Source of the DNA: Blasia pusilla
Taxonomy: Eukaryota
Length of the DNA stretch: 64,000 bases
Assembly: GCA_050084515.1 (NCBI GenBank)
Contig: CM114271.1
Span: 9,052,001-9,116,000, forward strand
Reading direction: 5' to 3'
Positions 1-64,000 of this stretch are shown piece after piece; within the stretch, counting starts at the first letter, position 1, and each line of letters begins with the position of its first letter. Made by a program: the position numbers and the translations under genes. Under the pieces are notes generated by a model. It worked only from the letters and a program-made list of their open reading frames with translations, did no database searches and was not told where the DNA came from.

Positions 1-644
1 GATAGCGGCAACCCGTCAAAGTCCAACAAGTGGAATTAAGGTCTTCTTTGACTTCTTCGCTCGACTATTTTGCAACCCATCGAAGTACGACGGGTTGCGA
101 GGTGAAAAAAAGTTCTAGTAAGGTTTCAGGATGAAACGAGTGTTCTCCAGCCCATTGGAGTCCAACGGTTTGCAGAATGGTCTAGGGAAGAAGTCATGGA
201 AGCCCTAAATGCAACACGTCGTACTCCGACGGGTTGCAGAACATTAAAGAATGACTAGGTAGCAGGGACATTTTTTATGGAATGCAACCCGTCGGAGGCC
301 AACGGGTTGCAAGCAACTATTTTTATGCTACTTACTAGGAATCTGGTCGTGTGAATTGCGTTGTTGGGGCCTGCTTGCAACCCATCAAACTCTGACGGGT
401 TGCATCACTTAAGGCCCATGGCATCAATATGCAACCTGTCGGACTCCAACGGGTTGCACATGGTACACAGTGATCCTATCGCAACGTCAATCTCCAGGAG
501 ATTTTTGCAACCTGGCGGAGTACGACGGGTTGCATTGAGTCTCAGACATGGTTTTTTCTTTCATCTTGTATGGAACTTGTCAAAAACTGACGGGTTGGAG
601 GATTGCAGGAGATTAGAATTCTCACTTTGGGTTGACGATTGCAG

Positions 645-5048: not shown

Positions 5049-6492
5049 GAGAGAAGCGGAAGCGAGAGGTGCCCGGGTTGTCCCAAGGAGAATACAGCCC
5101 ATCATCCTTGGGAAGACACAGACAAACAACGACCCGGACAAGCATCCTCCTTCAGCTCACCTCTTTACTCGATGAGCTGAACAACTTCAGTTCTCAAGCG
5201 TCGACAACTGCCATCAAAAAATTGACAACGCTGGGAAGGAAGCTCCAACGAAACGGGCACGCTGCCTGGACGGTGAATGGACTGGTGGAAGAGGTTGCGG
5301 TGGATCTCTTGATCGCCGATATGCCCTCGGGGTTGCAACATTGGGGCGAAAATCTGGCGGACGAGGTACCTAAGTGGAATCTACCGCTCACTTATGACCA
5401 GATTGCACTTTTGTTCCCCTTTGCAGACGCCTATCTGAGTGACAGGGGCTGCTTCTTGGTGTTGACTGGAGGGAGCGAGGATGAGCTCTTCAACCTCTAG
5501 TGCGTCAAGAGGTTGCTAAAGTGGAGGACGGCACAATCATGGATCATAAAAAACGAGTACCCACTTCGATCCGCAACGAGTCAGATTCGGGTAAGGCTAT
5601 ATTCCTGTACAATAATTTCAATTATCTTATAATGATGTGTAGAATGAGAGTCAGTGTGGGTTTTTTTTGTTTGTGAGCAACCCGTCGGAACCCGACGGGT
5701 TGCAGTTGATTTTGGTTTGTGGATGCAACCCGTCTAATAGCGACGGGTTGCTATCATACGGGTTTCTCTCAGGCGAGCATGGGCTGGTCTAGGCCAGCAA
5801 CCCGTCACCTTCCGACGGGTTGCATCCGAAAACCAAAATCAACTTGGAAACCCAAAAGAAATTGCAACCCGTCGGGTTCCGACGGGTGGGTCCGGGACAA
5901 AACTTCTCGTCGGACTCCGACAGGTTGATCCAAAGTCAGTTATTGAAAATCTTCTCAATGCGACTTCTTTAGTTTCTGACATTGTTTCGTCTTTGATTCT
6001 AGATGGACCACTCCTACTTGTATCTTTTTCGTTCGCCCGAGCACCATTTCCGGTGTTCAAGATCCAGGATCCTGTGGATCCATGCTCGATGGGTGCACTT
6101 AGATAGTTTGTACAATTCCCCGGAATTTACATGCAAGACAAGACCCGCTTCGGGAGGAAGGAAAAGTCGCCGACCACGATGCAAATGCTCATCGAGCTCT
6201 GATCAAGGCCGGGTAACTTGGTGTTCGACTTAGTGGGCCTTTCGGGGCAAGTATCAAAGCGCGCTGGCGAATGGCGGCAGAACATTCTCTGCCTCGAGGA
6301 AGGCAGAATCGTTTGACCTTTGCAAGGAGGCAAAGGCAAAATACGAAAGGCTCGTTGGGCGCATACAACTCTCCACCGGCCGAGAGCTCGGTTCGAGCCA
6401 CCCTTGGTAGTGACTCCATCGTCACTTCCAACGATTCCCAAAATCGGGAGGGCAGGGCCGAAAGTGATTTTGCAAGAGCTCTCGGACGATGA
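5049..6492 (+). pseudogene. ParB-MTase gene copy 1, C-terminal beta-class N6A/N4C methyltransferase-like domain (exon end 5049-5590, intron 5591-6002, exon 6003-~6492)
   Basis: AVDLLIADMPSG (motif IV-like), YLSDRGCFLVL, SWIIKNEYP...R|MDHSYLYLF and EKSPTTMQMLIEL*SRPGNLVFDLVGLSG...NILCLEE (motif X/I-like). Donor CGG|GTAAGG at 5591 and acceptor TAG|ATG at 6003, phase 0. Confidence 0.7.
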
Positions 6493-38875: not shown

Positions 38876-40735
38876 TAACCCCAACAACACAATGAGTGGA
38901 ACTCAACGCAAAGCCGAAAGGGGTCCCATACTTGAAGTCAGTGAACGCCAAAGTGATTTGTTACAATTGTGGTGAACCCAGGCACATGGCTAAGGGATGT
39001 TTGAAGCCCAAGGTTAGTAAACTGAGTATGATTGTGTTTTTTGCTAAGCACTTATCGGCGGGAGGTCTAGAGACATCTCTCTAAGTCACCAAGAGGACAC
39101 CCAATTTGGTTTATCTAGGATCCAAGATCGCTGATCGCGATGTGATGTTGCTCGTTGATACAAGTACTTCGCACTCCTTCTTGAGTCCGAAAATCATGAA
39201 GGCGTTGGGGTTATCGACTACTAAGGCGGACGAACCCATTAGGATGGGTTTTGCGGGAGGCAAGTCCCACCAGACCTCAGAGTTGGTTTTAGGGCTAACT
39301 CTGGGATGTGGAGTATTCAAGTTGGAGGAGAACTTCACAATGTGAGACATGGACAGAATCGATGGAGTCTTGGGGAACACGTTTTTGGATGCGTATGAGG
39401 TGGAATTGAGGCAAAGACCTTTGAGGTTGAGCGTCTTGGTTAAAGGAAAACGGTTGCATGTCAAGTTGGTTTGTAAGGCTCCTATGAAGACGGATTTGGT
39501 GAACGCCATTACGAGGAGGAGTTTGACCAAGTTAGATGATGGGCTTCTTTGCTTGATGAGACAAGTAGAGGACAATGCAGGCGCGAGACGCTGAGAGCAG
39601 GACTCAGCTTCAAGGAAAATCCTTGAAACACTCAAGAGAGTAGTGAAGGAATTTGGCGATGTATTAATGAAGGAGCTTCTGACTGAGTTGCCACCACATA
39701 GGGTGGTCGGCTTGAGTCTTCCATGGAAAAGAGTGAGTTCGGGTTTACCAAGATCAAGTTATTCGGTCATGTGATTAGCGCACATGGAGTAAGTCCAAAC
39801 ATGGAGAAGGTGAGAGTGATTTCCGAATGGGAACCGCCTTCCACCGTGAAGAGGATGAGGACGTTCATCGGAGCGGTCCAATTTTACCGGATTTGCATGA
39901 AGAACTTTTCAAGAATAGTGAAACCTCTCACATATTGGACCGCAAAGTTTGCCAACACTACATGGACCCAGAAGGTGGATGAGGCGTTTAACCGAGTTAA
40001 GGAGATCTTATTGCAGGAACCAATTCTGAAGATTCCAGAATTTGGCAAACCATTTGAGGTGCACACTGATGCTAGTGATTTCGAGATTGCAAGAATGTTG
40101 GTGCAAAAAGGGAGACCTATAGCATATAAGAGCAAGAATCTTAGCAACACCGAAAGAAGATGGCCCACTCATAAGAAAGAATTGTTCGCATTGGTTTACT
40201 TTTTGAGGAAGTGGCGTCACTATTTGGGACTTCACAAGACTCAAGTATTCACCGATAACATTTTTCTCAAGTATTTTGAGACCTAGGATTGCGTGACACC
40301 GAAGCAACTTTGATGCCATGATACCTTGGCATTAATGAATGTGGAACTAATCCACAAGCCATGGAAGGATAATGTCATTCCATATGCATTGAGTTGTAGG
40401 TATGAGCATATGCCATCGATGACACAAGTCTTGAGAGCAATGTTCCTTAAAGAAACAGATCTCGAGAGAAGGATTCGTGAAGGATACATGAAGGATGGGC
40501 AAGCAAGTGAGTACCTAGGGAAGTTGAAGCAGGGCAAGAAGGTGGCCAACATAAGTTTGAGGCATGGTTTGCTCAGGTTTAAGTAGAGCAAGATCTATGG
40601 CAGGCTATCCAAGGCACGCTATGGACCAAGGTGTTCGTGGAATGTCATGACGGACCTTTGACGGGACATAACGGGGAGAAATCCACGCTTGGTGTCTTGA
40701 CCAAGAGGTTCTTCAGACCCAACATGAAAGAAGAT

Positions 40736-42032
40736 TGTAATGTACAAGAAGTTAAATAATTGATCTTTTTACAATAATTTAATGAGTTTGATCCCCAAGA
40801 GGATCACGATTATGTGAAAAGAGAGTTCAAGATGACTTTATCTTGCAATAGTTGTACTTAAGTGTTTACAATTCTGATTCAATCACTTATCAGTGTATTC
40901 TTCTCTCTATTAGTACCAATATTTCTTTCCTCGATTCTCTCCAGTGGAATTGAAATCACGCTCAGATGGATCTTCACTCAACATCAAAGAACCTCAAAGA
41001 GACCTGAACAAGAAGCTGACTTCTCCTACTTTTGGAACTCAATCCGTCTAGGCAGGCTACTCTCTGTCAAACAGATTTCTTACAACTCCGTGTTGATTAT
41101 TCTAATGATGGAAGTGTTCTCCTGATTCACTCTTCACTCTGCAAACCCAATAAGAATCTCAGACATAGGCATCGTGCATCAGAATGAAGAAATGAATGCT
41201 TTACTACTCCATCAAGAATTAGAAAGCTTCAAAGTGTTATACAAGCTCGAGAGAGTACTACTCCCTTGCTCGGACCATCCCTACAACATATGGACTTCGT
41301 GAAAGAATGATGATGATAGCTACTTTCATGCTTCTTAAATATCTTCCGAGGCAGTATTAGGTCCAAAGATCTGAAGCATCTCTTACGAATCTAGTGTCTA
41401 TTGAGAGTTTATAACTACCTTAATCTACGGTTCTCTTATCTTTTCCTATGACCGCTATGAATCCGCTGAGCATAACTGTCCTAACTTCCTATCTGGTCCA
41501 AAAAATCATGCCTCTTCCTAGTCTAACTACTCTAACGATGTTTTGCTTGAAATCACTTCGAGTCTTAGCTTTGCTTCGCTGCTAAGTCTGGACTTCTTCT
41601 TCTTCCCTTGAGGACGAAGCTCTTCCTAAGGACGAAGCGCTGCATTCTTCGCTCTTGTTCCAGATGCTTTGTTCTTCGTGCTTCGCTGAAGAGCGAAGTA
41701 ATTCTTCCTCTTCTTCTTCATCGAGCTTCGTTCAAGAGCAAAGCACTTCATAAACGGGTTCTTAATAAGGATTTGTTGTCTTTTCCAAGCTTCGCTCTTA
41801 GTTTTTAGACTTCGTTACCGTATTTCCATCTCCTCTAAGGCAAATCCTTGATTTTCCACCTCTCTGCCTTGTCCTAGGAGCTTTGTGATCAATTTCAATA
41901 TAACTCATTCTTCCAATTTCACAAACATAATATCTAAAAAAATCTTATATGTACAATCTTCACTTCATAGAATTTGTATTCCTTGAATCAAAATGTATAA
42001 ATCTCTAAAAGTAAAAAATTGTGGGTATCACA
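40736..42032 (-). mobile_element. Solo LTR (family C, LTR of the element at 1213-5048)
   Basis: TG...CA termini with a perfect 5-bp TSD AAGAT at 40731-40735 and 42033-42037. Confidence 0.9.
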
Positions 42033-42631
42033 AAGATGTTGCTAAATATGTAAAGACTTGCATGACTTGTTAGGAAAACACAATTTCTTATGCGAAGAAA
42101 CAAGGCTTACTTCATCCTTTTATGATTCTTGAAGGACCTTTGCAAAGTATAAGCATGGATTTCATTACGAGTCTTCCAGGGTTTGAGAGAAACAATGCTA
42201 TACTTGTGATTTTTGATTCATCAAGTTGGGGAAGTTTGTGCCAAAGGTAGAGTCCGCAACGGCCTACACGACTTCTCGACTATTCCTGGATGGCAAGTGG
42301 CTAAGCATGGATGAGTACTACTACAACTCAACCAAGCATTATGCAACTAGAGAATCTCCGTTTCTTCTTGCGTATGACGAGAACGAGAAGGGCCTCTTGA
42401 CTTGGCCCTTCCGAAGGGCGCTACATCGGCACACACCCGACAAGTAACGACGGAAAGTTTTTTAGTGGAGATGCAAGAATGACAAGAGCGAGCGAGAAGA
42501 AGTTTTGCCAAGGCTCAACTAAGGTATGTTAAGCATGCTAACAAGAGTCGGTGCCAAGTGAGTTTCTAAGTAGAGGAGCAAGTGTGGTTGAGTGTAAGGA
42601 ATCTCACTCTTCCAAAGGGTTTGTCTGCAAA

Positions 42632-43655
42632 TATCGCAACCCTCATGACCAAACACACACCAAATAGACGTCAAGCAAAACATCAACACTTTAGTGTGCT
42701 CACGCTACAATGATTGCGCTTTGAAGAGATCTCTTGGAAAAGCCCAAGAGACAAAACACACAAGAGAGTTTTTGTGTTTCATGCATTTATGGTGGTGACC
42801 AAGAAACCTGAACCAAACTAGAACCAAGACATGAGATGAGTTGACTCTAGGAAAGTTGGTTGCCAAAGAGGTAAGAACCAGATTTGGAACGCGACTAGCT
42901 TTTGGGGATTTTGATCGTGTTTCAGACCATAATGTTAAGTCCTAAGATGCATTTAGGACAAGTAAGAAGGCGTTGGAAAGCTTATGCCGAGAAAATTACA
43001 ACACACCAAAGATCTCAAAAAAACTCAAGCAAAGCTTGAGATATTTTCCGAAAATGACTATAAGAGGAATCGGGTGAGGGCCAATTTGAGGGACCCGACT
43101 ATCTTTCCCTAAATTTAGGGGGGCAAAGATCCTTAGAAGTACTAGTAAGGGGGAGTATCCCCAAGGATTCTTGGAACCTAAATCCCACTTTGAGTGCCAA
43201 ACGATGTCTCAAGGGCACGGGATGGAACGGGAGTTTGGCGTTGGAACTCGAAACCCAAACCCGATCCAAGGAGTGGATTTTGTAAGCCACACTTGGATTC
43301 CAACCCGAGACTCATTTTTGTGAGTTGCGGTTAGGGACTCATTGGATGTCCATTGGAAATTTGGGACCGCCAGGCGTGCAAACGCCATTTGAGGTTCCTG
43401 AATTGACCAGAAAGTATGTCCCAAGTCTTGAGAGACTTGCATGTGTTGTAAACTATGAAACTAGGAAGGTTGAGCTTGATGAGAGGCGGAGTCGAGAACT
43501 CGGAAAGGTAGAACGATGATTGACCCAGACTCGACTAACGTGAGTGCGTGTTTGGGTGCAGATCAAGATTGAGAGCGTGTCCTTCTAAATGCACGCTTCC
43601 GTAACACTAAAGATTTACGCTCAAGGAGAGTAGGCTCGAGAGTAGGCGCACGACA
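42632..43655 (+). mobile_element. Solo LTR of family A inserted in the integrase of its own family
   Basis: Reverse complement of 29740-30747. Imperfect TSD GCAAA/TCAAA; flanks rejoin LSAKLSAKYVGPY. Confidence 0.8.
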
Positions 43656-43874
43656 TCAAAGTTGTCAGCCAAGTATGTTGGACCATATGTGATCAAGGCA
43701 AAGCCGTTTGAGGATATGTGTATATTGGAGCTACCACAAGAGTTCAAGATTCCCTCGACTTTCCATGTGTCATTATTGAAGAAGTTTCTTCAAGATAAAT
43801 TACCGCCAAAGTGGAGAATAGAGTTGAGACCACAACCGGTCATTGCAAATGAGGAACCAAAGTTTGAGGTACAG

Positions 43875-45680
43875 TTCTGATGTAGCCCTCCTCCAAGAGC
43901 TCACTTAATTGCTTGCTCGACTCATCAAGTTTTTCTTGACTCAATCTGTATGGGGCCCTTGAAGGTGGTTGAGACCCTAGGATGACCTCTATCTTATGAT
44001 TGAGTGCCCTATGCGGTGGCAACTCATTCGGAAGCTCATTCGTCAAGACATCACCAAATTCCTTTACTACTCTCTGAAGCAGGTATGGGCATCTCCTCAA
44101 AGATGAGTCTTGATCTCCATGTGTCTCACTTGTAGTCTCCTCCACTTGTCTACTCAAACAGAGAAACCCATCTTCTAGTTCGGTCAAACTCCTCCTTGTA
44201 ATGGCGTTCACCAACTCCTTTTTCACGGGAACCGTACAAACCAATCTCATCTGTAACCATTTTCCTTTCACTAAGACGCTCAACCTCAATGGACTTTGTC
44301 ATAGCTCCACCTCACACACATCCAAGAATGTCTTCCCCCGGACTCCATCAATTCTATCCATCTTGCACACAATGAAATTCTCCTTCAAGTTGAATACTCC
44401 GCATCCAAAGGTTAGTCCCATGATTACCCCTAAAGTTCGATGAGACTTGCCTCAAGAAAAGCCTACTCAGATGGATTTGCCTGCCTTAGTGGTTGACAAA
44501 CCCAACTCCTTTACGATTCTCAGACTCGAGAAGGAGTGCAAAGCACTTATATCAACGAGCAACATCACATCACATCGCGATCAACAATCTTGGATCTTAG
44601 ATACACCAAATTGGCCGTCCTCTTGGTGACTTGAAGGGATGTCTCCAAACCTCTCATCGACAAGTGCTTAGCAGCAAACGCAATCATACTCCCATTACTA
44701 ACCTTCAGCTTTGAGTATCCTTTTGCCATATGCCCAAGTTTGCCACAATTGTAGCGTATTACCTTGCCGTTTCCCAACTTTGGGTATTGCCCTCCCTCCG
44801 GCTTTGCTGTTGGGGTAAGAGACTCCCCTTGGTCATACTCACCCCACTCCAAAACCGCTTGGATGCCCCCTTGTTTTTTGGTAACTTAGAAAAACTTTTC
44901 TGCTCGACCTTAAGGGACTTTGGAATTGGACCTCATCGTCCCCTATCCGCTCCGCCGGCTTCAAAAGTTCTGCGCACGTCTTTGGTTGCTCTGGTAGGAA
45001 GAGGTCCTTTTCTATGTTAGGCTTAAGTCCACAGAAGAAGATCACCTTCTTCGCAAACTCATCCATCTTTGGAAGCGAGTTCATTTTCGCATTGAACTCC
45101 CGCACATAAGTGCTAAGAGACCCACTTTGACGCAGCCGTACGAACTCTGCGCCATCACGAAACTCCTTGTACTCCGAAGCAAATTGGTTGCCAAACAACA
45201 CCTTGAACTCCTCCCAACTCATAGATGTTCCAAGGCCTAGATGTTCTCTGCGATGAGCCATCCACCATTGGAGTGTGTGATCCTTTAGGAAGGGAACCTC
45301 CATGGTCAACTTGTCTTGCTCTTCTTCCCTTTGTGCCTCAAAGTAAAGTAACAGTTCTATCAAGAACTCGTCCACCTTCTTAGACCACCCCATTTCCTTG
45401 AATGGCGTTGGAAAATTTGTCTCACAAAGCTTCTTGTTGAAGCTAGAAGGTCTGTCCGACTCGAGCCCAAAAATCCGCTTACTCTGCTAGGACATCTGCT
45501 CAATCATCAACTTCGTCAAGTCCATCATTTGGACATACAGCGTCGGGTCACTTGAGTTTGGAAGCGAAGGCCTCGTGGAAGGATTCCCATGTGGGACATC
45601 CTCATGAATAAAGCTTGGAACCTCAAATATCAACATCTCCTCCTCTGGCTCTTAGTCCGACATCGGTTCGTCTCCCAGCT
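43875..45680 (-). mobile_element. Gypsy family A gag-protease-RT start, decayed
   Basis: FLKDHTLQWW...LRQSGSLSTYVREF; RYNCGKLGHMAKG; ELPPHRALNHKIEVILGSQPPSRAPYRLS. Confidence 0.85.
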
Positions 45681-50272: not shown

Positions 50273-53200
50273 AATTGTCTTTGCAACCCGTCGGACTCCG
50301 ACGGGTTGCAAAGCCACGGAATCTGACCGCTTAGCGAATCTTTGAAATCTAACTATTTGCAACCCAATGGAGTTTGACTTGCAACCTGTTGGAGTCCGAC
50401 AAGTTGCGTTTAGGTTGGGGAACTTGGCCACCTTCGTCCTTGCAACCCATCAGAGATGTATAGGTTGCACGTCGTGCAAACCGTCGGAGTCCGTTGAGTT
50501 CCATGGGATTCTCGGTCGGTACCCTTGCCCTTGCAAACGGTCTTATTCCGTCAGGTTGCACAATGGTCGCTTCTTCCTTGCAACCCGTCGGAATCGGGTT
50601 GCACAAGGAGCTTGGATGGATTTCCTACAATGAGTGAATTGTGCAACCCGTCGGACTCCGACGGGTTGCACGGGGACCTCGCCTCGATCTCCCTTGTTGA
50701 GGGAACTGTGCAACCCGTCGGAGATCGAGTGGTTGCACGGGGACCTCGCCTTGATGTCCCATGATGAGGGAAGCTTGCAACCCGTCAGAGTACGACACCT
50801 TGCTTGGGGACCTCGCCTTGATGTCCCACAACGAGGGAAGCGTGCAACTAGTTGGAGTCGGACGTGTTGCATGTACGATGAGTCCGACGGGTTGCACGTT
50901 TCCCACATGCAATGCATCATAACAGCCGACGTCGCGGTCGGTCCAACGGTTCCCACTAACCAACGGTTAGCTCAACGGCTCAAAAAGTATATCAGGCACA
51001 GATTTTGCTCATTTTCCTTTTTCATTCTGCAATTTTAGTTGAAGCTCCATCGACGAGTCCTCTGTGCAATTGAGGTCCCCAGGTCTGCTGAACATGTCGA
51101 TTACTCAAAGCCCTTTGCTGGAAGGTAATGACGCTCCAAGACACAACGCTTTGAGAGTTGGGTAAGAGGCAATGATGCTTCAAGAGGCGTGGTAAGAGGC
51201 AATGACGCTTTAAGAAATGATGGTTTGAGAGTTGGGCTTAGGCAATCGATCAATGATTCAAGAGTTCTGGCAATCGATCGGATTTTAGGAGTGCACAAGT
51301 ACAAATAACATTGACGAGGAAGAAGACCTTACCAACATGCACAATGAAGAGGAAGTAAACACAAGCAATGAAGGTTGGAAGCGTCACTCCCAAGTCCATC
51401 AGGACTCCTGTGTTGCGAGCTCCTAGCCCTCGCTCGGCGGCAAAAATTAGGCAACAAGAAATAGAGGATCGGGAGAGGGAAGCAGAAATGCACATGCAAG
51501 AGGTTGTGGCAAAGCTTGCTTTGGAGGAGCTTGCAAGGAAGAACGCGGAGGCTGAGTCATCAAAGGCCTAGGAGAAAAGAGTCATGGACAAGAAGCGAGA
51601 GAAGAAGCGTCTCGATGCCTCCATCAGGAGAGTAGAATTAGCGAAAGCGCAGAGGGAAAAATCTATCTCCGTGTAAGAAAGCCCCGCCTGTCCAATGGAC
51701 AACGTTGAGATGGAGGATATGTCCCCGATGAGGTCTGGGGACACGATGAACTTAAAATTGGTTGAGGAAACCGCAAAAGTTCAAGAGACGGATGAGGAGG
51801 TCATGAGGACAGCAAGTGTGGAGATGGTGGACATCTCTAAAGAAGCAAAAGAAGAGTCGTCATCGTCATTGAGCTCGATGGAAGAAATCAACCTTTATTG
51901 CATCAATGAATTTCATGTGGACTTGCCACATGTTGTCCGAGAGCAGCTAGCCGGCATGGACACCAACCCTATTTTGGAGCGGGTAAGTAGACAATGATAT
52001 ATCTGAATTCGCATTCTCAATTCCTTTCTTAATCAACAAAATCTGAAAAAGTAGCTTATTGGCATTCCTCGCCATTGTGGCAAGTTGTTGAGGAGATGTT
52101 AGTGGTGGATGGTCACAAGTCCCTAAGAATTCCACTAGGTTGATTGCGGACCATGGAGTTTTTCCATGAAATCAGTCAAACGAGGATATCACAAAGCTGA
52201 AGCAGTCGGTTACGACGGCATCCTACATCGACAACTTCCCTCCGTTCTTTATTCAGCCTTATGATGAAAATGGAATGCAGGCTCTGGTGATAGAAGAACA
52301 CTTGGAAGCCTTGGACACATTCTAGAGGATCAGAGACGAGGAATTCATAAGAGCTATTGAAGGAACGCAATGCAGCTGGATGCGGAACCTCTACTTCTTC
52401 ATATGGGATGGGAACCACAAATACATGGCATGGTCACAATTTGTTGAGGAGCGCCCAAATTCATTAGAGGCGCATTTCTACGTGAGGGCAGTCGTCCTCC
52501 ATCCATTTCCGCATCACATGGCAATGGTCGAGATGGAAATGCATTCCATGAATGCGTAAGTTCATATTTCTCTCAATAATTTTTGTTTGCTTCAACCGGT
52601 CAACTCTGACGGATTGCAAAAAATTTCAAACTGTAGATTGGCAGGAATCATAGGAGTCGATAGCCATAGTCCTTTTTTACGTTGCACGGGAAATTTGGGT
52701 ACATTCGAGCAACCTGTCGGACTCCGACGGGTTGAAGCAAGGGCTTCCATTAGATTTTCTCGGCAATCTTGCAATCCATCGGACTCCAACGGATTGCAAA
52801 ATGAGAAATTGCTAGCCAGGATGAATCTGGGCTATTGCAAACCGTCGGACTCCGACGGGTTGCTAAATGACTTCGATTTGGAGTGAGGTTTCTAGATATT
52901 GTCGGTGTTTAGCAACCCGTCGGACTCCGACGGGTTGCCAAAGGTAAAATAATCACACAATTTTCTGGCACTTTTGGCTTAAATACAACCCGTCAGAGTC
53001 CGACGGGTTGCATTATCTCCAAAAGTTCCTCCTACTTGTTGATTATTGTGCCTTTTGCACCTCGTCGGAGTGCGACGGGTTGCTTTTAGGCCTCTGATGA
53101 CTTCTAAAAAAGACCATTGTGCAACTCATTGGATTTTGATGGGTTGCTGAACACACGTTTCATCAAGAAACCTCACTCCGAATTGAAGTCATTTTGCAAC

Positions 53201-54820
53201 CCGTCGGAGTCCGACGGATTGCAACCAAATCTCTTTTGGGTCAAAATTTGGATTGAACTATGCTTCTGGGGTCTCCTTGCAACTTGTCGGACTCCGAAGG
53301 GTATCACTTTATGCAGATGGACATGAATGTGCTACCCGTCAGACTCCTCCGGGTTACACATCGTTGCCATCTGCGGACAGTGATGCAACCCATCAAAGTC
53401 CGAAGGGTTTAGGGCAATCAAATAAAGAAGAAGACTTGGGCAAATACGTTCATCTCCCAAGATGCAGCGGTCACGATTCTACGCTGGTCCAAGATCCAGG
53501 CAGCCAAGAAGAGCGCCACCTTGGAACTGGAGCGAAAGGGAAAACGTCTCGGTGTCGAAACGGGCCAAATTCATTTAGGGTTGTGTTTGTAGCTACAAAG
53601 TTCACTGCAAGCAAGATGTAGCGGTACATTGCAATCCTCAACCCCAAACTTGGCCCGGAGTTCTACAAGGATCTGAAGGCGATAATCAAGCGCCTTCGGA
53701 AAAGGGACGAAGACCCACAGAGTCGGATCGGAGAGAAGGTCTCTCTCGATTGCGTGCACAGGTTCTTATTTTCCGGGATATTCGAGTTTAGGCGGATCCG
53801 ACTGATGAAAATCAGTAAGGCACCGAGGCACAAAAGCGGGCAACACACCACCCTCCGGGCATATCCAACCCACTGATCTCTCATTGGCTCTAAGGGAATG
53901 GTCCTTGTAGGATACATTGCGACTTCTTGAGAAGTCGATGATCGTGGATCTACAAGCGGAGCTCAAAAAAATTGAGCCAGTTCCAGAGGAGGCCAACCTA
54001 GAGGCAGCAGAAGATTTTGAATTGTGCCTTCATGACATCTGGGATAAGCTGACGAAAAACCCGGGCTTTCAGACGATATTCAAGAATCACATCCTCCCTC
54101 AGGCAGATCTGGACGAGGAAATAGACACGTGAAAATAGGATTTTGCAAAGAAGAAGTGGGATCTTCAGGAGCAGGCGGCTGAGTCTTCCCCCCAAGAAGC
54201 TACCCAGAAGATGGTGTACATGTACCTCATCTATTCTATAAATGGAGGTATCTGATGCAAATTACCAGCAGCGTGCAAATTATGGGCTTCTCCTCTTGAT
54301 GGAGAGGGATTCTCCATGTCCGACATGAAGATGGGGCAGAGCATGTCCAAGTGGGAGGTATTGAATAATCCAATCTGGTTGGACTTCAACGACCCGGAGG
54401 AGATGACAAACAAGAAGCTTTGCGTGGTGTATGACGCAATTATCTCTGGTAGGAACGACATTCCAAACTTAGTGAAGACTGAAAAAATTTTCAAAGGAGA
54501 TATGGAGGAGCAAGCCATGGAGACAGCTGAGTTGATGTCCAAGGTAGTCATCGCCAAGGACAAATCCACAACCAGTTTGAAAGCAAAGGCAAAGGGGTCT
54601 AGGAATTCCAAGGCTGAGTCTTCAAGAAAAGAGGTAGAGTCTTCAAGGCGAGAGGGCCAAACCAGGTCCTTGTCAAAGAAAACACTTGTGGAGTCTGATT
54701 TAACCGAGACTCCAACAAGCCGACGGCAAACTCAAGAGAAGCGAAAGCGGGAGGTGCCAAGATCGTCCAAGGGAGGAGATAAGGATGTGGAATACACTCC
54801 ATCATCCTTGGGCAAGCATG
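50273..54820 (+). mobile_element. ParB-MTase element copy 4: palindrome array (50282-50900), promoter, exon 1 (51344-51982), ParB exon (~52165-52555), palindrome-filled intron (52556-~53410), exon 3 to ~54820
   Basis: Perfect 29-mers at 50282-50310 and 50642-50670. 67-bp spacing at 50643/50710/50777/50844. Donors GG|GTAAGT (51983) and GC|GTAAGT (52556). Confidence 0.82.
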
Positions 54821-55199: not shown

Positions 55200-57229
55200 C
55201 TATGAGCGCACGGATGGCCTAGGCCACTTGTGGTACGCTAGGTCATCTTATCAAAGATTGTAGAAAGAGATGAGAAGTCAAGATGAGAAGAACGGTTGTT
55301 TAAGACCAAAGAAGGAGTCTAGAAATTCTGTAGAACTAGGAGAACATGAAGTAGATGCTTGGGTAGCAATAAAAGAGTTTTGCACATAGACAGAACATTC
55401 CACTAAGTCAAAGATTAAGGATGCATGGGTGCTCGATAGTGGAGCATCTAGGCATATGACCAATCATAAGGATTAGTATAGCTCCTTACAACCTCTACAA
55501 GAGCCCATCGTAGTTATTGTTGGGAATAATGCAAAGTTCTATGTAGAAGGGAAATGCATAATTTCTTTAGTCTCACAAAAAAGAGATGAAAAGAAGTTAA
55601 CTGGTATACTATATGTACCAGAGTTGAAGCATAATTTGATTTTAGTAGTAGGATTATGCGATCGTGATCTAGGAGTTCGTTTCAATAAAATTGGAGCTGT
55701 CATTGAGGATGCCAATAGCAAAGTAGTGGGTGAAGGTATACGACGTGGAAATATCTGCAAGTTTTATGCTTTCACGACAAGTGTAGGTACAGATCTTAGT
55801 AGTAGTAAGTTGTGGCATGAAAGATTTAGTCACCTAAGCTTTCCCTTACTAAGTCAGATGCAGAAATCTAGCATGGTTGTTGATTTACCAACAATTTATG
55901 GAGTGTTGGATACATGTGAAGCTTGTATGATGGACAAGCAACACCGACAACCATTTCCACAAGACTCTAGCAATAGAGCAAAGGATCCTCTAGAGCTGAT
56001 TCATGCTGACCTCTATAATAAAATGAGAACAGTGGTATTAGGTGGTTCTTTTTAGTTGTCGACCATTATAGTAGAAAGACGTGGGTGTATTTCCTCCGTG
56101 ATAAGGCAAGTACTTTTAGAAATTTTAAAGTATGGCACAAGTTGGTGGTTGAGAATGAGACAGGAAAGAAGGTATAGAAGCTTCGCACCAATCGGGCAGG
56201 AGAATTCTTATCAACAGAATTAAACAAATATTTTGGGGAGCATGGAATCAAGCGACAGTTAACTACGACACATACGCCACAACAAAATGGAATTATCGAG
56301 CGTCGAAGCCGTACAGTGGAGATGGCAAGATGTATGATGAAAGCAAAAGGTTTGACAGAAGGGTTTTGGGCTCAAGTTGTTAATACTACCGTTTACATTC
56401 TAAATAGCACTGCTATCAAGTCAGTGCAAGGCATGCCTCCTCATCAATCATACTCAGGTAACATACCATCTGTCCAACATTTGAATACTTTTGGTAGTGA
56501 GTGCTTTGTACATATTCCTGAAGCATCCAACACCAAGCTGGAGTCCAAGAGCAAAAAATGCATCTTTATGGGATATAATGATGAGTCTAAAGCTTATCGC
56601 CTATGGTGTCCTGAGACAAAGTAGATACTCGTCAGTCGTGATGTGGTGTTCTAGGAACAGCCTCGTCAAGTGGCGGATATCAGTGATCCGTCCACATTAT
56701 CTTCGACCAAAGAGATAACCCACCAGAGCACACCACGAATATTTACACGAGATCATCAAGAAGAAGAATTTGGTGATGATTACAAAGAGCAGCTTGCTCT
56801 TCCACTACGGTTGTCATCCTCTAAGTGGATAAAGCAGCTCTTGGATGGTAAGGATCCACCAGAAATTGATGAAGTTGTTACACATCCAAGGAGATCCAAG
56901 AGACTAGAGGAGCAGAATAGAGCTTCCGTACATCTCGTCAACATGGCCTTGATGACAAACGTCTTGAAGGTGGAAGAGCCATCATGCTTGGATGAGGCCC
57001 TTGGTCATCCTCAATGGAGAGAGGCCATGCAGATGGAGATGGACGCTATTCAGAGAAATGAAACTTAGACTCTAATTGAGAAGCCAAATGACAGGAAGAT
57101 AATACGCACCAAGTGGGTGTATAAGACCAAGTACAAGTCGGACGGTACATTGGATAAATTCAAAGCGAGGTTGGTTGCACAAGGGTGTTAAAAAATTGAA
57201 GGTTTTGACTACTATGAGACTTTTGCTCA
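55200..57229 (+). mobile_element. Decayed Ty1/Copia pol (protease, integrase, start of RT)
   Basis: WVLDSGASRHMT; LWHERFSH..CEACM; PLELIHADL; TPQQNGIIER; KCIFMGY; KWVYKTK...KFKARLVAQG. Confidence 0.92.
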
Positions 57230-58490
57230 GTCACGTGCCCATCGTCCACGACTGTGGTGGACGAACTTGATACCATCAGAGGTACTGAGTCGAGCATACA
57301 GTGGAGTCTAGAGAGCACCACATCTCACAATGGATGCTATTTTGGGCTCAGGGCCTCGATCTCAGGTGGTGACACGGGATGATAGACTACCGTTGGCCAT
57401 GGCCAATAGGGTGGGGGAGTTGAGGGCAGCCTTACCTACGTTGGTGAGCTTCCCAGCATCCCATGCCTTTCGTCAGGGAGGGCCAGGCATGATTTGGGAT
57501 GAGGTGACCGGAGCATTGGAAGAGCCTACAGCAGATGAGTGCAAGCGCGCCATGGGGTTCACTACCGGTACTACGGCGGTGCCAGGGATGACTGAGGCAT
57601 CACGGAGACAGGTGTTGGGGCAGGCGATGGACCTCAATTGTCTCACATGGATAGTCAGCCTAGGTATGGTGGAGAGAGACGGATGCGAAGTGTCATCCAT
57701 GCCGTCACGCCCACGAAGTTGGACCATTGCCCTTGGTCAGACAGGCATTGGTCAAGTAGACGAGGAGAGATAGGCACCCATGGACTTCCTGGGATGTCGT
57801 TCGAGCAGAGAGTGCGAAGGCGGCTAGAGTAGCACATGTTCATTTTTTGGATGTGGAGCATGGTGTAGGAGGTAAGAGTGGAGTGGTTGTTTCGGAGGTG
57901 GCTAGGGTTGCTACATAGCAACCAAAGCCGTAGGTTACGTCCTCTCCGAGTGAGGTCACGATGGAGACTTGGGAGCCTGTGATAGGTCTCAAGTTGATAG
58001 GAGGAGAGCGACGGCGAGTTCATAGGTTTCAGAGAGGGCATGTCAGTTGTTTTGCCTTCAGTATGAGAGACTTGGCTATGCTGAAGGGTCCCGGGATACG
58101 GATTGAGTTGACTAGTGATACGCCGATCTTTCGTCGACCCTACATGTATTCTGATATGGAGCGAGCCTTGATTCAGAGCAGGATTCAGGACTTGTAGGAG
58201 GCAGGAATTGTGGAGTTATCACATGGGGAGTATGCATCTGCCACTGTCATGCCGGCGAATAAGGATATGTATGGCAATTGGACGGATAGGCAGATGTGTG
58301 GAGATTACCGTCCTATCAACCGACAGACAAGGTTAGATCGGTACGCCATGCCTACTCCTGAGGAGATCTTTGATGCGGTAGGGCATGCAAAGATCTTCAG
58401 TACTTTAGATCTCCGTGCTGGCTATCATCAGCTTCCTATCAGGTTGGAGGACAGGGAGAAGACATCATTATGGGGGATAGATCGGTTCGA
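57230..58490 (+). mobile_element. Gypsy-DNMT element fragment: C-terminal half of the C5 methyltransferase followed by RT
   Basis: RAHRPRLWWTNL...ECKRAMGF...VLGQAMDLNCLTWI, then PIFRRPY...MCGDYRPIN...IFSTLDLRAGYHQL. Confidence 0.85.
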
Positions 58491-58493
58491 GAG

Positions 58494-61400
58494 TGTCATG
58501 ACCATACGGATTATGTCGTAGAGTATAGTGTGCTAGTAGAGGTCATTCCTTATGTAGGACCGTAGTGGATTGGTAGAGATGCGGTTCCATACATAGGGTT
58601 GGGGGTTACTCAGTTGGGGGTGAGTTTCCCAGTAGGGCCCGCTCTTAGGTTGGAGGATATAAGGTGGAGTGCACTCAAAGAACAGTCACTTCTTTGAGTT
58701 GAGCCTGTTGCGTTGGGAGTTAGCCTTGGTAGTGAGTAGAGCTCTTGGCTATGGTGTTTCCCGCAAGCTTCGACCTAGATTCTCCCATCGTGGAGTGGGT
58801 TTGGCTCGATTGTATGTGATTGTAAACGTGTTTTATGAGAGTAGGTCTTTCACGGATTTCACTCAAAGAACTGGAGTAGATCTTTGCAGGCTTCGATTGT
58901 AGATCAGTAGGATCTGGTTAGGGCTGATTGTGTACTCAGCCGTGGATGTTCGGGGCTTGTTGCCTATGCCTTGAGGCTTCGAGGCAACTCGTGGTAGCTC
59001 GGGGTGAGTGGGCGTGAGAGGCGGAGTAAGGAGCAAGGAGCAAGCAAGCAAGCTTGCTTGCTTGGGCGTGAGGCAATTTTTGCAGGATTTGGGATTTGAG
59101 TTTTGCATAACTGGTCACCCATCTTTGGGCTATTTCGCTGGAGGACGCTTAATCGCTGAGTTCTTAACTATGCCGGTGTCTGCATTGTTGTAGCTCATTT
59201 GGTCTTTGTTCGGAGATGTGTTAGGCGCTTTATGCATCTCAAGTTTTTGGTTGATGTACCTCTAGCAAGCATAGTACGGTGTAGCCTCTCCATGCAGGTG
59301 ATATTTTCACGTGCTGCGAGTTCGACTAATACGTCATCGACCCGCGGCGGAGTAGCTATTGCGTTAGAATTGTGTGGTGGGTTTTGTGGATTCAGGGGGC
59401 ACCACGTTTGGTGGATTGTGTTACCTTGATTTCCATTTGCGGTTGGAGGGTTGTCGTTGGACTTCCTGTGTTTGGATCCCCTACATCGTGCTTCTTGCTT
59501 GCGCGCCCATTGTTAGGGTTGACGCTGATTTCCAGAGTAGTGTTACTCCTGTGTGCTACTGATAGTGAGGCTGGAGTGATGACCAGTAGACCGTGGGAGG
59601 CTTCTTGTAGTGATGAGAGGTTAGATTGCCTACACCCATAGCTAGTAGAGCTACAATAGTAGAGCGACATCGACGTCACTTGGGTAATTTGGTGGTGGTG
59701 CGGCACCGGCGTTGGTCATCACGGAGCTGTCGGGTGGTCTAGTTGGGGACTGTGGTGCGGACAGTGGTGGTTTCACACGGAGTGGATTTAGGTATCGGCT
59801 ACCTTTTCCGCTTCCGACGGTTGATGAAGAGGAGGACCAAGGTGTTCCAAACACCGAGTCTTCTACGTTGTTATCGAGTGTTGCAGCTCCATTGATTTGG
59901 GACATGGACGGTGGATATGGGGCCATGAAGGGCCCACGACGATACTCGGGTGCAGTGGGCACCATTGAATTGGAGGACTTCATGCAGGATTTTGATACGT
60001 GGTGTGATATGCAGATGTTGAGGAACGCCACGTTGTTTACACCCTTCTTGGCTTGGAAGGGGTTGTTTCAAAGACTTGGAAGGACCACCCATGGATGATT
60101 ACCATGAGTTTAGGAAGGACCATGTTCTTTGAGATTGAGGCATGGAAACAATATTGGTCTCAGGCTATGTGTCTATCACCCATGGTGGTATTGGTAGTAG
60201 TGCTCCTATTATGCCGGCCCGGCCCGGCGTTGAGTGGTACGCAGTATGAGCCGGAGTGGGGGTACAAAGTGGAGGTACTAGTGGGGGTACTAGTGGAGGT
60301 ACTAGTGCCCCACCATCGTTTAGCTTGGTTGCGAGAGTTCTTCAAGAGGTTGAAGAAGAACTATCAAGGAGTGAAGACGGAGAAGTTGAGGAATCTTCAA
60401 GACTTTGAGCGAAAGATTGGTGAGAGTCTTCGTGAGGCATACACGCGTATGCGACGCTTGATTTCAGTTACCTAGGTGTGATTGAGGATCAGCGATCCAT
60501 TTTGGTATGGGATCTTGGACAGAGATTTGCGCCGTAGGGTACGTGATGCTACTCTTATGAGTGATGATTCACCCACATTGACCCATGTGTTTGCTCTATC
60601 TAAGAAGATTGAGCTTAACATGGTGAAGGAGAGAGTGGTGACATCCGCATTCAGTAGGGATACAACTACTACTTCTCAGGTTCAGCCGCCCACCTCACAG
60701 TCTCGTAGTAGTGGTGGTGGTAGTAGTAGTGGGAGTCGTGGGGGGTACACGCGACCTCAGTCAAGTTCTAGAGGGACATTTGTGCAGAGACCATTCCCTT
60801 CATTTGCTGCCCCGCAACAAGGACAGTCATGTTGGACATGTGGAGGTGATCATGTTAGGAAGTTTTGTCCCCAAGAGGATGGGAGACGGACTTTGGAGGA
60901 TGGGCCTCAGTCGGCCCCAACTCAGTGTGATCATTGCGGGAGACTAGGTCATCCTCGAGAGCGTTGCTTTGATCTCCATCAAGAGTTGAGATCAGGCCGT
61001 GGCCGTGGTGGAGTAGCTCCGAGAGGCCGAGGTGGTAGAGGTGGTAGGGGTGGTAGAGGTGGACCAGTGGTTGGAGAGCCTACGGTGGCTACCCCTACCA
61101 CTACGACAGAGTCAACTATGGTCGCCGAGATTAAGCGATTGGAGCGAGTTGGCTACTATGGTGGTATCCAAAGATAGATCGGTTCGGGAGCAGGGCTTCC
61201 ACCTCTTATGGAGGGGATGATCTCTCTTATATGGCGAAAGTGCAAAGACAAAGGTTGAGGCATCAAGCTGCGATTCTACGAGAGGAGCCACTCGAGCGTC
61301 GAGCCACGTGGTGCTCGTGTGGAGTTGGACCCACAGAGGAGTGAGGGGGAGGCAAAGCTAGGCTTCCCGGTCATTCTTGTTGTCCGAGGTGCTTAGGACT

Positions 61401-64000
61401 CCATCCATGGTTCCTACGCAGCCTATTGAGCCGCAGTGGGGGATCGAGGCATCTACATCGCGTGTAGTAGACACGGATGCAAAGATCCAATGCAAGATTG
61501 CGGATGGCAACTTTAGTGTTGGGATCCCCATTGTTTTCGCCACGGAGCGATGGCTTTAGGAGTTGACTTAGCTTCAGTTTTTGATTAGCGACCACGTTGT
61601 GTGAACGTGGGGTGTTATTCGCTACACGTGTTGAGGTGGATGAGGGTGTTGTGGTGGAGCGACCCTCTATGTCGGGAGTAGCATTGAGTACGGTGCTACT
61701 TGGCAGCAAAGGCGGGGCGAAGATGGATGCATTACCGGTCCGCCAGCCATTGATGGTGAGAGGCTTACACCTGGTGTATGTATGTTGGACAACCGAGTGG
61801 GATCTTCCGATTGGTGAGTCCTACAGACAGGTGTATAGACCGGATAGAGTCTTGTTAGACTCGGTGCCCAACCTTGATGTTGGGAAAGGCGGCATGTATT
61901 GGTTTGGGTATTTGGAGGTCGAGCTTGAGCCTTGCCCATTCGATTCAAACATCACTTGGAGGAGCCAATGATAGGTCTCAATTCATGACACGGGAAAATT
62001 TTTTTCATGAGTTGAGACGGATCATGCGACCGATAGCTCCCGGTTGGGAGTATCTCGGTAGTCACATCACCGAGTCGTATGATGTACTAGTTGGAGGAGC
62101 AATATTGTACCCGATGGGTTTTCGGATGGATTCTTGGATCGAGACAAGCGTCTTCTTGAGACCATGTTGGCAGTCCGGGATGGACGTATGAGCCAAGTTC
62201 TGTGAGATTTATTTCGGGGCTCGACCAGAGGGTCTTCCCCAACAAAGTGTTAGCATCTGTGGGCTGGTTTTAGTGGAGTAGTCACTTGGCCAGGAGACTT
62301 TTGGAGGGTAATGTTTCTGCTATGGATTCTCCTGCGCATGAGGAGGTAGAGGAGGTCCCTATTTTTGCAGCATCCTCATCGTTGGATGTGCCACTTTGGA
62401 GTTCAGGCAGTGCACTACGGCAGGAGGCTAATCGCCTAGTGCAGGAGGCTTGGTGTGAGGCTATTATACCTCACGAGGAAGAGGAGGCCCCACGGCGGAC
62501 TCCTACTTCTGGTCCAGTTGGGTTATCCCCTTTGGATACTGCATCCATTGTATGGCAGTATCCGCAGGAGGGTATTTGTGTGTTAGATCTCTTTGGTGGG
62601 ATTAGCACTGGTTTGGCTGCAATGTTGCAGGCCGGTATTCCTGTGTGGAGATACGTGTATGTGGAGCGAGATGAGACGGCCCAGAGAGTCTCATCTCGAC
62701 ATATTGGTCAGTTGATGCGGAGATACCCTGAGTTGTTGCCGCCATCAGGTATTCGTGGGTACCAGCGTGCTTTACCATCACACATTGCATTGTTGGGGGC
62801 GCAGGACCTTGAGAGGGTTGGTCCTGTGGATTTGGTGATTCTTTGGATGGCCATGTCGTGGTCATACACGTCTTTGGTCGTGGTGAGGGATTACATGACC
62901 CTAGGTCTCGATTGTTTTGGGAGATGTTACGGGTGTTACGACATCTTCAGGTTCATCGCACACGTGCTCTAGCTTACATTCCGAGAATGTTCCATTGTTG
63001 GGTGACACTCGACCCGGATGATGGCGAGTGTTCATGAGGTGCGGTCTTGGATTGGACCAGCGGTGTTGTTGAATGCAGCGAGTTGGCTCAGCGTGCACAT
63101 CGCCCACGCTTGTGGTGGACAAACTTGTTGCCTAGGGAGGTTCTACGTCGAGCATATGATGCAAAGGCGGGATCCTCGCCTTACGTGGATAGTATCTTGA
63201 TCTTTGGGCGACTTTCTCAAGTGGTGAGGGTTATTGATCGGTCACCCATGGCGGTGGTGAACCGTGTGGGCACCCTAGGATGGCACTACCCACATTGTGA
63301 GTTTTCCCGCGTCACATGCCTACAGGGAAGGTGGCCCCGGGCTTGTATGGGATTCTCATGTGCGCGGCGGTTGGTGGAGCCTAACGCGATGAGAGAGAGC
63401 GTCGATGGGATTTACTATCGGGCGTGTGGCGGTTGCTTCTATTTCGAGGCTTCATGACGTCATGTGTTGGGTCGGGCCATGGACCTGAATTGTTTGACTT
63501 GGATTTTGAGTCTTGGTATGGCCGAGCGGCGTCGACTTGGACTATGTCTGTGGGTCTTCCACCCTTGTAATGAGCTCGATGGCTACCGGGGACGGTAGAG
63601 GCATCGGTGGGGCAAGGAGAGTAGTATTTTGCATCCTTGGAGTAAATGGGATGTAATGGTGGGCATGTGGAGTTGGTTGCTCATCTTTGGTGGTGGAGGA
63701 GTTATTTGCTCAGATGATGGTGTAGCTAAGGGTGTACGATCTTGTGAGGGGGTTGCGTAGCGACCAATGGCATCGCCCTCTCCTCTAGTGTGCCGGTGGA
63801 GGAGACTTGGGAGCCATTACTTGGGCCCAAGCTTACGGGAGGTGAGAAACGACGCTGACACAGTTCCTACGTGCTTATAGGAGTTGTTTTGCCTTTAGCA
63901 TGAAGGAGTTGGGTTCTCTGGTTGGACCCGGTATACGGATTGATTTGGCTAGTGATACGCCAATCTTCCGTCGTCCCTACCGATATAGTGATATGGAGAG
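58494..64000 (+). mobile_element. Gypsy LTR retrotransposon carrying a DNMT3-like domain: probable LTR (~58494-59110), gag (~59712-61177), protease (~61840-62190), DNMT (~62570-63530), RT start (~63880-end)
   Basis: Knuckles CWTCGGDHVRKFC and CDHCGRLGHPRERC; RVLLDS; DNMT motifs; IRIDLASDTPIFRRPYRYSDME. Confidence 0.85.
62570..63530 (+). pseudogene. DNMT3-like C5 cytosine DNA methyltransferase domain (frameshifted)
   Basis: Motif I VLDLFGGISTG; motif II YVERD; motif IV VDLVI..GWPC (PC at 62851-62856); RSRLFWE; motif VI ENV at 62983-62991; motif VIII AHRPRLWWTNL; motif X VLGRAMD. Confidence 0.88.

What the first reader, a model, noticed from the sequence alone, without database searches (positions are those of the whole stretch)
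58494..64000. Gypsy retrotransposon with a DNMT3-like C5 methyltransferase between protease and RT
Seen: all main C5-MTase motifs (FGG, PC, ENV, RxR, motif X) occur in order inside pol, and a second copy at 57230-57690 has the same DNMT-then-RT order. Known: DNMT-bearing retrotransposons are described from dinoflagellates and the charophyte Klebsormidium (de Mendoza et al. 2018). Inference: if this genome is a land plant, the lineage persisted into embryophytes or arose again. The enzyme could pre-methylate cDNA.
Basis: partly seen in the sequence, partly recalled or inferred. Interest (0 to 1): 0.75.

Follow-up and report, generated by a model that had tools for sequence, protein, structure and literature searches.

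The report
Bryophyte retrotransposon with built-in DNA methyltransferase
This is one copy of an abundant jumping-gene family in an early land plant that carries its own DNA-methylating enzyme, apparently made in bulk with the particle's coat protein; such elements were described in print only from algae, and close relatives sit unrecognised in the model liverwort Marchantia.

Summary
Confirmed. Window 58494 onward is the 5' part of a 9.1-kb Ty3/Gypsy element ordered Gag-zinc knuckles-protease-DNMT-[UAG]-RT-RNase H-integrase-PHD. The DNMT is DNMT3-like by sequence and predicted fold. It keeps its catalytic cysteine in 30 of 30 genomic copies and is under purifying selection (dN/dS 0.12-0.20). 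First-look counts suggest roughly 2,000 copies. The host is a land plant, probably a liverwort. Close homologs (67-80%) occur in Marchantia, Calypogeia, Riccia and Sphagnum; distant ones, with the DNMT after RNase H, occur in green algae. (1) A conserved stop in a TMV-like readthrough context separates DNMT from RT, so the enzyme should be made at Gag levels. (2) The ends are split repeats A-body-B-A-B, as in Klebsormidium KnitGypsy-Dnmt3, yet with TG...CA ends, 4-bp target duplications and a self-priming site. (3) The 'second copy' is a different subfamily into whose RT this element inserted. Many frameshifts cluster at CHG sites and may be assembly errors. cDNA methylation is the best explanation but untested. 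I could not tree it against Klebsormidium sequences or host DNMT3.

The parts
58494..58861 (+). Repeat A1, 368 bp, TG...CA, the element's left end (LTR-like); repeated at the 3' end beyond the window
   Evidence: 97.3% to A2; A1/A2 K2P 0.0166; 29 of 30 family 5' ends begin exactly here
58655..58664 (+). TATA-like box in A1
   Evidence: position; TATAA 29 nt upstream of the PBS-complementary tract in three copies; promoter function inferred
58687..58699 (+). Predicted 5' end of the transcript, complementary to the primer-binding site (one mismatch in this copy)
   Evidence: perfect 11-nt complement in 21 of 30 copies; window copy among the 9 imperfect
58861..58873 (+). Primer-binding site of self-priming type, directly after A1; does not begin with TGG
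   Evidence: a distant relative (L126) has a different 16-nt site with its own complementary partner 26 nt after TATAA
59904..60994 (+). Gag with two zinc knuckles (about 60830-60868 and 60926-60967); frames broken in this assembly
   Evidence: Retrotrans_gag weak, E 0.003 in the C6 copy; start inferred from Marchantia proteins
61796..62179 (+). Aspartic protease; active-site motif at 61855, frame broken next to it
   Evidence: LLDSG motif in the C6 copy; Asp kept in 28 of 28 aligned copies of 30; no Pfam protease hit on the C6 protein itself
62547..63538 (+). DNMT3-like C5 cytosine methyltransferase domain, motifs I-X in unpermuted order
63758..63766 (+). Conserved UAG ending ORF1 (Gag-PR-DNMT), RT in frame behind it; putative readthrough signal
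   Evidence: this copy reads TAG CGACCA, 10 of 30 copies read TAG CAGCCA
63939..64000 (+). Start of reverse transcriptase; RT-RH-IN-PHD and B1-A2-B2 continue to G000:C1:9119617
   Evidence: best PDB match Ty3 RT/RH 4ol8, E 1.7e-70, for the C6 copy
57229..58493 (+). 5'-truncated member of a second DNMT-Gypsy subfamily: DNMT C-terminal half 57231-57677, TAG CAACCA at 57916, RT 58102-58482; target of the insertion
   Evidence: its RT-RH-IN-PHD resumes right after the inserted element (PHD E 4e-11)
58490..58493 (+). Left copy of the 4-bp target-site duplication (one mismatch to the right copy)
55477..57228 (+). Decayed Ty1/Copia fragment (gag-pre-integrase, integrase, SH3, start of RT) abutting the second subfamily; not part of the DNMT element

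Best explanation
A Ty3/Gypsy retrotransposon of an old green-lineage group that carries a working DNMT3-like enzyme as standing equipment. Shown: domain order, DNMT3-like motifs and fold, family-wide retention, purifying selection, a conserved stop between DNMT and RT, split terminal repeats with integrase-type ends. Inferred: (1) most ribosomes stop at the UAG and make Gag-protease-DNMT; a minority read through to add RT-RH-IN-PHD. (2) The protease frees the DNMT inside the particle, in many more copies than RT. (3) The RNA self-primes, and the enzyme methylates cytosines of the new cDNA before or at integration. (4) The PHD finger steers integrase to a histone-marked chromatin class. The new copy thus arrives already methylated, which would hide it from defences against naked DNA or damp its expression and so limit harm to a haploid host.
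For: DNMT identity; AlphaFold pLDDT 95.9 with a 58-sequence alignment; all listed Foldseek hits are DNMT3A/B/C, best E 8.5e-21. Retention: motif IV P and C 30 of 30, motif VI E 29 of 30, motif VIII R 27 and 29 of 30. Selection: DNMT dN/dS 0.14-0.20 in 7 unsaturated comparisons against RT 0.10-0.23; 0.12 and 0.15 in two further pairs. Stop: TAG in 24 of 30 copies by aligned letters, 20 contiguous. 54 of 80 metagenome loci have a stop plus CAR-YY-N before an in-frame RT linker. Exact CAR YYA, the TMV signal giving about 10% readthrough (PMC2754532), occurs in families only 51-66% alike (L086, L126, L130, L133) and in other subfamilies of this genome (57916, L199, L201). Marchantia and Calypogeia proteins end at the same place. 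Self-priming covaries. The related dinoflagellate DIRS-DNMT3 methylates CG de novo in yeast, and its authors propose cDNA methylation.
Against: No activity, expression or methylation data here. KnitGypsy-Dnmt3 gave no methylation in yeast (inconclusive). Only 4 of the 54 metagenome junctions match CAR YYA exactly; 48 read CAACCC, and 12 of those follow TAA. An ATG lies 6 nt after the stop in this family and in the large metagenome group, so reinitiation is possible there. Some relatives have no stop (P0116) or carry the DNMT after RNase H (37 proteins), so Gag-level expression is not universal. The copies look heavily CHG-methylated (inferred), which host CMT would explain without the element's enzyme.
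Confidence: 0.55

Rival explanations
1. The enzyme is active but works on chromatin in trans or after integration: released Gag-level DNMT methylates sister copies or the insertion site, acting as a copy-number brake or against competing elements.
For: High predicted output suits action in trans. PHD finger most like PHF12, CHD4, KDM5, BHC80. The paper on algal elements raises a self-limiting role.
Against: About 2,000 first-look candidates show little braking; fusion to Gag points to packaging.
Confidence: 0.17
2. Methylation or binding by the DNMT serves the odd end structure: it marks the internal B1|A2 junction, a perfect copy of the integrase site (CA-GC-TG), so that integrase uses only the outer junctions and avoids cutting itself.
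For: The junction palindrome is conserved in families 51% alike. Integration is strictly asymmetric: 0 of 30 5' ends have B upstream and 29 of 30 3' ends are B1-A2-B2. Split repeats and DNMT co-occur here and in Klebsormidium.
Against: No direct evidence. The asymmetry could arise from reverse-transcription geometry alone. I did not test whether DNMT-less relatives with split repeats exist.
Confidence: 0.1
3. The domain is kept for non-catalytic nucleic-acid binding or acts on RNA (packaging, chaperoning), not as a DNA methylase.
For: Negative yeast result for the Klebsormidium domain; Gag-level amounts suit a structural role.
Against: Catalytic Cys, Glu and Arg residues are nearly invariant over 58 homologs down to 31% identity; the fold matches DNMT3, not DNMT2.
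Confidence: 0.13
4. A recent one-off capture of a host DNMT3 or DRM fragment, carried passively.
For: I could not find the host DNMT3 to compare.
Against: Present in thousands of candidates and several subfamilies, in liverworts, mosses and algae; purifying selection; unpermuted motif order excludes DRM; host DRM aligns only weakly (31% over 135 aa).
Confidence: 0.03

Closest known systems
KnitGypsy-Dnmt3 of Klebsormidium nitens (de Mendoza et al. 2018, PMC5890265; I read the abstract, passages, parts 1, 3 and 4 of 7 of the main text, and searched 3 supplements; figures not held)
   Same: Intronless, unrearranged DNMT3-related domain in a Gypsy element; DIRS-like repeat layout with Gypsy domains; conserved catalytic residues; purifying selection near 0.2.
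   Different: Here in land plants and at roughly a thousand-fold scale, where the paper says K. nitens has few copies. DNMT ends ORF1 before a conserved stop, where the paper places it in the Pol ORF. PHD finger, self-priming site and 4-bp TSD are not mentioned in the text I read; Fig. 4c, which I could not see, may show some of them.
SymbioDIRS-Dnmt3 (same paper)
   Same: DNMT3-type domain, A-coding-B-A-B repeats, shown to methylate CG de novo in yeast.
   Different: Tyrosine-recombinase element of dinoflagellates; this one has a DDE integrase, protease and target-site duplications.
EpiLTRs (bioRxiv 10.64898/2026.05.21.726589; read part 1 of 5 and passages)
   Same: LTR elements pairing a methyltransferase with a chromatin reader.
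   Different: They carry DAM plus a DNMT4-related enzyme and a chromodomain; the paper calls them distinct from 'streptophytes (Gypsy-DNMT3)'.
Tf1/Sushi and plant Tcn1 self-priming Gypsy elements (Neumann et al. 2019, PMC6317226; passages)
   Same: Self-priming in place of a tRNA primer; Tcn1 occurs in mosses and club-mosses.
   Different: Those are chromoviruses with ordinary LTRs; that paper has no occurrence of 'PHD', 'methyltransferase' or 'Marchantia'. Clade placement against that database was not tested.
TMV-type UAG CAR YYA readthrough (PMC2754532; passages)
   Same: UAG followed by CAR YYA before an in-frame polymerase.
   Different: Shown in RNA viruses; the paper cites only candidate cases in rice gypsy elements. 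Here it would gate RT behind a methyltransferase.

Membership tests
C5 cytosine methyltransferase, DNMT3 type | Motifs I, IV, VI, VIII, X in unpermuted order with catalytic residues | tested here: met
C5 cytosine methyltransferase, DNMT3 type | Closer to DNMT3 than to DRM, DNMT1, DNMT2 or bacterial enzymes in sequence and fold | tested here: met
   PDB: DNMT3A E 1e-12, DRM 2.6e-6, HaeIII 7e-4; Foldseek
C5 cytosine methyltransferase, DNMT3 type | Methylates DNA | not testable with these tools
   needs an assay
Ty3/Gypsy LTR retrotransposon | Order Gag-PR-RT-RH-IN with Ty3-like RT | tested here: met
Ty3/Gypsy LTR retrotransposon | TG...CA ends and short target-site duplication | tested here: met
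   4-bp TSD exact in 6, one mismatch in 1, unreadable in 1 of 8 copies with both ends
Ty3/Gypsy LTR retrotransposon | Two ordinary LTRs at the termini | tested here: not met
   ends are A...B-A-B
KnitGypsy-Dnmt3 | DIRS-like split repeats with Gypsy domains | tested here: met
   against the legends
KnitGypsy-Dnmt3 | Intronless DNMT3-related domain under purifying selection (Ka/Ks below about 0.2) | tested here: met
   0.12-0.20
KnitGypsy-Dnmt3 | DNMT in the Pol ORF | tested here: inconclusive
   in frame with RT but behind a conserved stop; continuous in some relatives such as P0116
KnitGypsy-Dnmt3 | Clusters with K. nitens retroelement DNMTs in a tree | not testable with these tools
   no protein named Klebsormidium among the listed hits
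DIRS/PAT tyrosine-recombinase elements | Tyrosine recombinase, no DDE integrase | tested here: not met
   rve and Integrase_H2C2 present, no recombinase hit
Chromovirus | Chromodomain at the integrase C-terminus | tested here: not met
   PHD finger instead
DRM | Circularly permuted motifs (VI-X before I-V) | tested here: not met
   order I-X; the host's own DRM is separate

The most novel reading that the evidence does not exclude
An unrecognised, green-lineage-wide clade of Gypsy elements, alive in land plants and in Marchantia, uses stop-codon readthrough to load each particle with a de novo DNMT3 at coat-protein stoichiometry. The enzyme methylates the cDNA before integration, so new copies are born silenced without RdDM, and integration proceeds through split repeats by a route not described for DDE integrases. 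At thousands of copies such an enzyme could contribute to bryophyte methylomes.
Probability: 0.4. Interest if true: 0.85.

Novelty: new variant of a known kind. Interest (0 to 1): 0.66.

Why it matters
What retrotransposon DNMTs are for has been open since 2018, because they were known from algae that are hard to manipulate. Marchantia holds many near-identical Gag-PR-DNMT gene models (an 18-member cluster labelled hypothetical or CCHC protein), along with methylation mutants and methylomes, so the question becomes testable. The predicted readthrough gives a sharp, cheap test. These enzymes are also a possible confounder in studies of de novo methylation in bryophytes. The split-repeat ends mean ordinary LTR finders probably misannotate a family that may occupy several percent of this genome (rough inference from about 2,000 candidates of 9-10 kb in 390 Mb).

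Tried and rejected
Pfam on 13 window fragments: no methyltransferase hit, because the frames are broken. Single-sequence AlphaFold failed (pLDDT 37.7). Folding the 5' leader was not better than shuffles (z -0.82), so self-priming rests on complementarity and covariation only. Viral contigs: 2 weak hits (E 2e-4), not followed. Host DNMT3 not found: an insect DNMT3 query returned phage, retroelement and DRM hits, and the one DUF3444 locus is a DnaJ protein. Expression: no RNA holder listed; two runs only guessed to be RNA have contigs over the DNMT at depth about 5-6, not used as evidence. Laid contigs differ from the window at many indel sites but come from other copies, so they do not prove assembly error. 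The idea that integration cuts a symmetric 2-LTR circle at either junction predicts B upstream of A1 in half the copies; seen in 0 of 30. A 1-LTR-circle product (A-body-B) was seen in 0 of 30; one 3' end was rearranged. Variation at the B1|A2 junction was not read as end-joining scars, since it covers CHG sites where this assembly is unreliable. My recollection that Odin elements have split repeats was not borne out (PMC9040795, 0 occurrences). Nested targeting: 8 of 30 5' flanks abut DNA matching my reference stretches, but one is the window itself, those stretches include flanking non-element DNA, and there is no background rate, so no claim. Literature: 10 searches; 'Gypsy-DNMT3' occurs in 2 papers; the Marchantia gene ids were not found (the only hit was for MpDNMT3, the host gene). 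Passages only were read in PMC12344493, 10.1101/2021.02.12.428880, 10.1101/363937, 10.1101/2021.11.30.470311, PMC13398078 and PMC11982613; none described bryophyte copies. Subscription papers, Repbase/Dfam entries, figures and bioRxiv supplements were not visible and could hold a prior mention.
Full report
1. Observation. The five methyltransferase motifs are at 62586, 62845, 62983, 63098 and about 63470, after a protease region and before the start of RT. In the window they are split over three frames, and Pfam sees nothing in the pieces. A DNA search of the own genome gave 3,856 first-look candidates; all 40 scored span the domain at 91-100% identity. One of the 30 fetched loci (L009, contig C6) holds protease and all motifs in one natural open frame. 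It scores PF00145 at E 3.8e-9, hits DNMT3A/B structures first, folds at pLDDT 95.9 and matches DNMT3 structures at E 8.5e-21. Catalytic residues are kept in 27-30 of 30 copies.

2. The element. It runs from window 58494 to G000:C1:9119617, 9.1 kb; the C6 copy is 9.8 kb. The C6 copy reads 1,254 codons (Gag, two zinc knuckles, protease, DNMT), a TAG, then 934 codons of RT-RH-integrase, with a PHD finger at the end in a shifted frame. RT is closest to Ty3 among solved structures. The PHD resembles those of PHF12, CHD4, KDM5 and BHC80; its ligand is unknown. Searches with the 5' and 3' ends gave 2,331 and 1,988 candidates; these are first-look counts, not copy numbers. Other subfamilies at 61-67% DNMT identity coexist.

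3. Ends. The termini are split direct repeats: A (368 bp), body, B (about 108 bp), A, B. 30 of 30 5' ends lack B upstream and 29 begin exactly at the TG of A; 29 of 30 3' ends are B1-A2-B2 ending in CA. Target duplications are 4 bp (6 exact, 1 with a mismatch, 1 unreadable of 8). The same layout is in metagenome loci L145 and L147. This is the layout that de Mendoza et al. give for DIRS elements and, by their legend, for KnitGypsy-Dnmt3. Right after A1 lies a tract complementary to a site 26-33 nt after a TATA-like box; the match is perfect over 11 nt in 21 of 30 copies, and a 51%-identical relative has a different tract with its own partner. This fits self-priming as predicted for Tcn1 elements. 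A purine tract precedes B1, so ordinary reverse transcription would give B-A-body-B-A. How that becomes A-body-B-A-B is unexplained; the strict asymmetry argues against random cutting of a 2-LTR circle. A1/A2 distances in five copies are 0.006-0.022, the window 0.017: young insertions, with no calibrated rate here.

4. The stop codon. The TAG about 70 codons after motif X is not decay: 24 of 30 copies have it by aligned letters, 20 contiguously. Marchantia and Calypogeia proteins end at the same spot, and 47 database proteins, some redundant, are Gag-PR-DNMT without RT. In 54 of 80 metagenome loci a stop plus CAR-YY-N precedes the in-frame RT linker; the other 26 are truncated or broken earlier. 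The exact TMV signal CAR YYA is seen in 4 of those 54, the most divergent ones, in 11 of 30 copies of this family, and in three other subfamily copies here. Against: 48 of 54 read CAACCC, and a nearby ATG allows reinitiation in some groups, though it is absent from the divergent ones. Either way ORF1 should be made in excess over RT. That makes the DNMT a Gag-level passenger, which is the main new clue to mechanism.

5. Host and range. A DELLA domain over cut-off in an intronless GRAS frame marks a land plant. The host DRM falls among bryophytes (98/96) beside Riccia (90/87, not firm), so a liverwort is likely. Named homologs: Marchantia polymorpha 79%, Calypogeia fissa 80%, Sphagnum 54-80%, M. 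paleacea, Riccia sorocarpa, Closterium 41%, Monoraphidium, and a Chrzof1 model that I read from memory as Chromochloris. None of the listed rows (78 of 78, and 120 of 328) is named from a vascular plant, hornwort, Physcomitrium or Klebsormidium; most rows are unnamed, so absence is not shown. A full HMMER scan gave 259 clusters at E 1e-30 or better. Two architectures exist: PR-DNMT-RT and RT-RH-DNMT-IN-PHD (37 proteins, the green-algal type). In a quick tree of 45 chosen rows all 43 retroelement DNMTs stand apart from an insect DNMT3 and a phage enzyme (99), the bryophyte group is firm (100), and the RH-DNMT type is one clade (99); an RT tree of 23 rows shows matching groups. With two long outgroups and no host DNMT3 this suggests, but does not prove, one old acquisition followed by a move of the domain. 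dN/dS of the DNMT is 0.12-0.20, like RT.

6. Is the window copy dead? As assembled, yes: 23 indels in 1 kb against the C6 copy. But over 29 copies there are 364 indels to 777 substitutions, 71% within one base of a CHG site (21% expected) and recurring at the same place in up to 18 copies; 33 metagenome loci show 28 to 2,788. This looks like long-read miscalling on CHG-methylated DNA (inference from general knowledge), so intact copies cannot be counted from this assembly.

7. Mechanism. Most likely (0.55): self-primed RNA, Gag-PR-DNMT in excess, readthrough for RT-IN, DNMT released in the particle, cDNA methylated before a PHD-guided integration. Architecture and selection are shown; readthrough, packaging, activity and targeting are inferred. 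Rivals are action in trans (0.17), a non-catalytic or RNA role (0.13), protection of the internal integrase site (0.10) and passive capture (0.03).

8. Novelty. It works like KnitGypsy-Dnmt3 and meets every feature I could test except the uninterrupted Pol frame; membership by phylogeny is untested. The 2018 survey's supplements do not mention Marchantia, and later papers say only 'streptophytes' and cite it. My 10 searches found no account of bryophyte copies, of the readthrough or of self-priming in these elements. Two earlier AI notes in this scan report similar elements in peat-moss-like genomes; they agree but are not independent support. Verdict: real, a new variant of a known kind, interest 0.66.

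Noticed in passing
L156 and L157 (G000:C23:4769 and 47659): Contig C23 looks like a phage genome repeated at a 42.9-kb period (terminase-like frames beside an intronless C5 methyltransferase): probably contamination in the assembly.
   Followed up: partly
L001-L030: Indels in repeat copies concentrate at CHG sites and recur at fixed positions, a likely long-read artefact that would also affect other TE and gene annotations in this assembly.
   Followed up: yes
L198 (G000:C1:44106.7 kb) and C1:44173.5 kb: A divergent host DRM (at most 55-58% to any listed homolog) and a probable inverted second copy 66 kb away.
   Followed up: partly
window 72-475, 5677-5841, 8904-9009, 50283-53429: 24 dispersed copies of a roughly 28-nt near-palindromic repeat, some in 67-bp tandem arrays, tied to another repeated element; unexplained.
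   Followed up: no
L009 versus L076, L088, L090, L093, L098, L101, L147: Synonymous distance to Sphagnum-like loci is only 0.7-0.8, and the DNMT tree groups Marchantia, Sphagnum and this genome apart from Calypogeia (94); possible horizontal transfer among bryophytes, no host-gene control.
   Followed up: partly
P0080, P0081 (Marchantia Mp_Vg00370, Mp_Vg00540): Full-length Gag-PR-DNMT gene models lie on the Marchantia male V chromosome, annotated as hypothetical proteins.
   Followed up: no
P0202: One RH-DNMT-IN type polyprotein also carries a G-patch domain between DNMT and integrase.
   Followed up: no
window 39139-44807: Long inverted repeat arms (565 and 241 nt, 77-78%) and several 4.6-7.3 kb direct duplications elsewhere show a window made almost wholly of nested TEs.
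   Followed up: no
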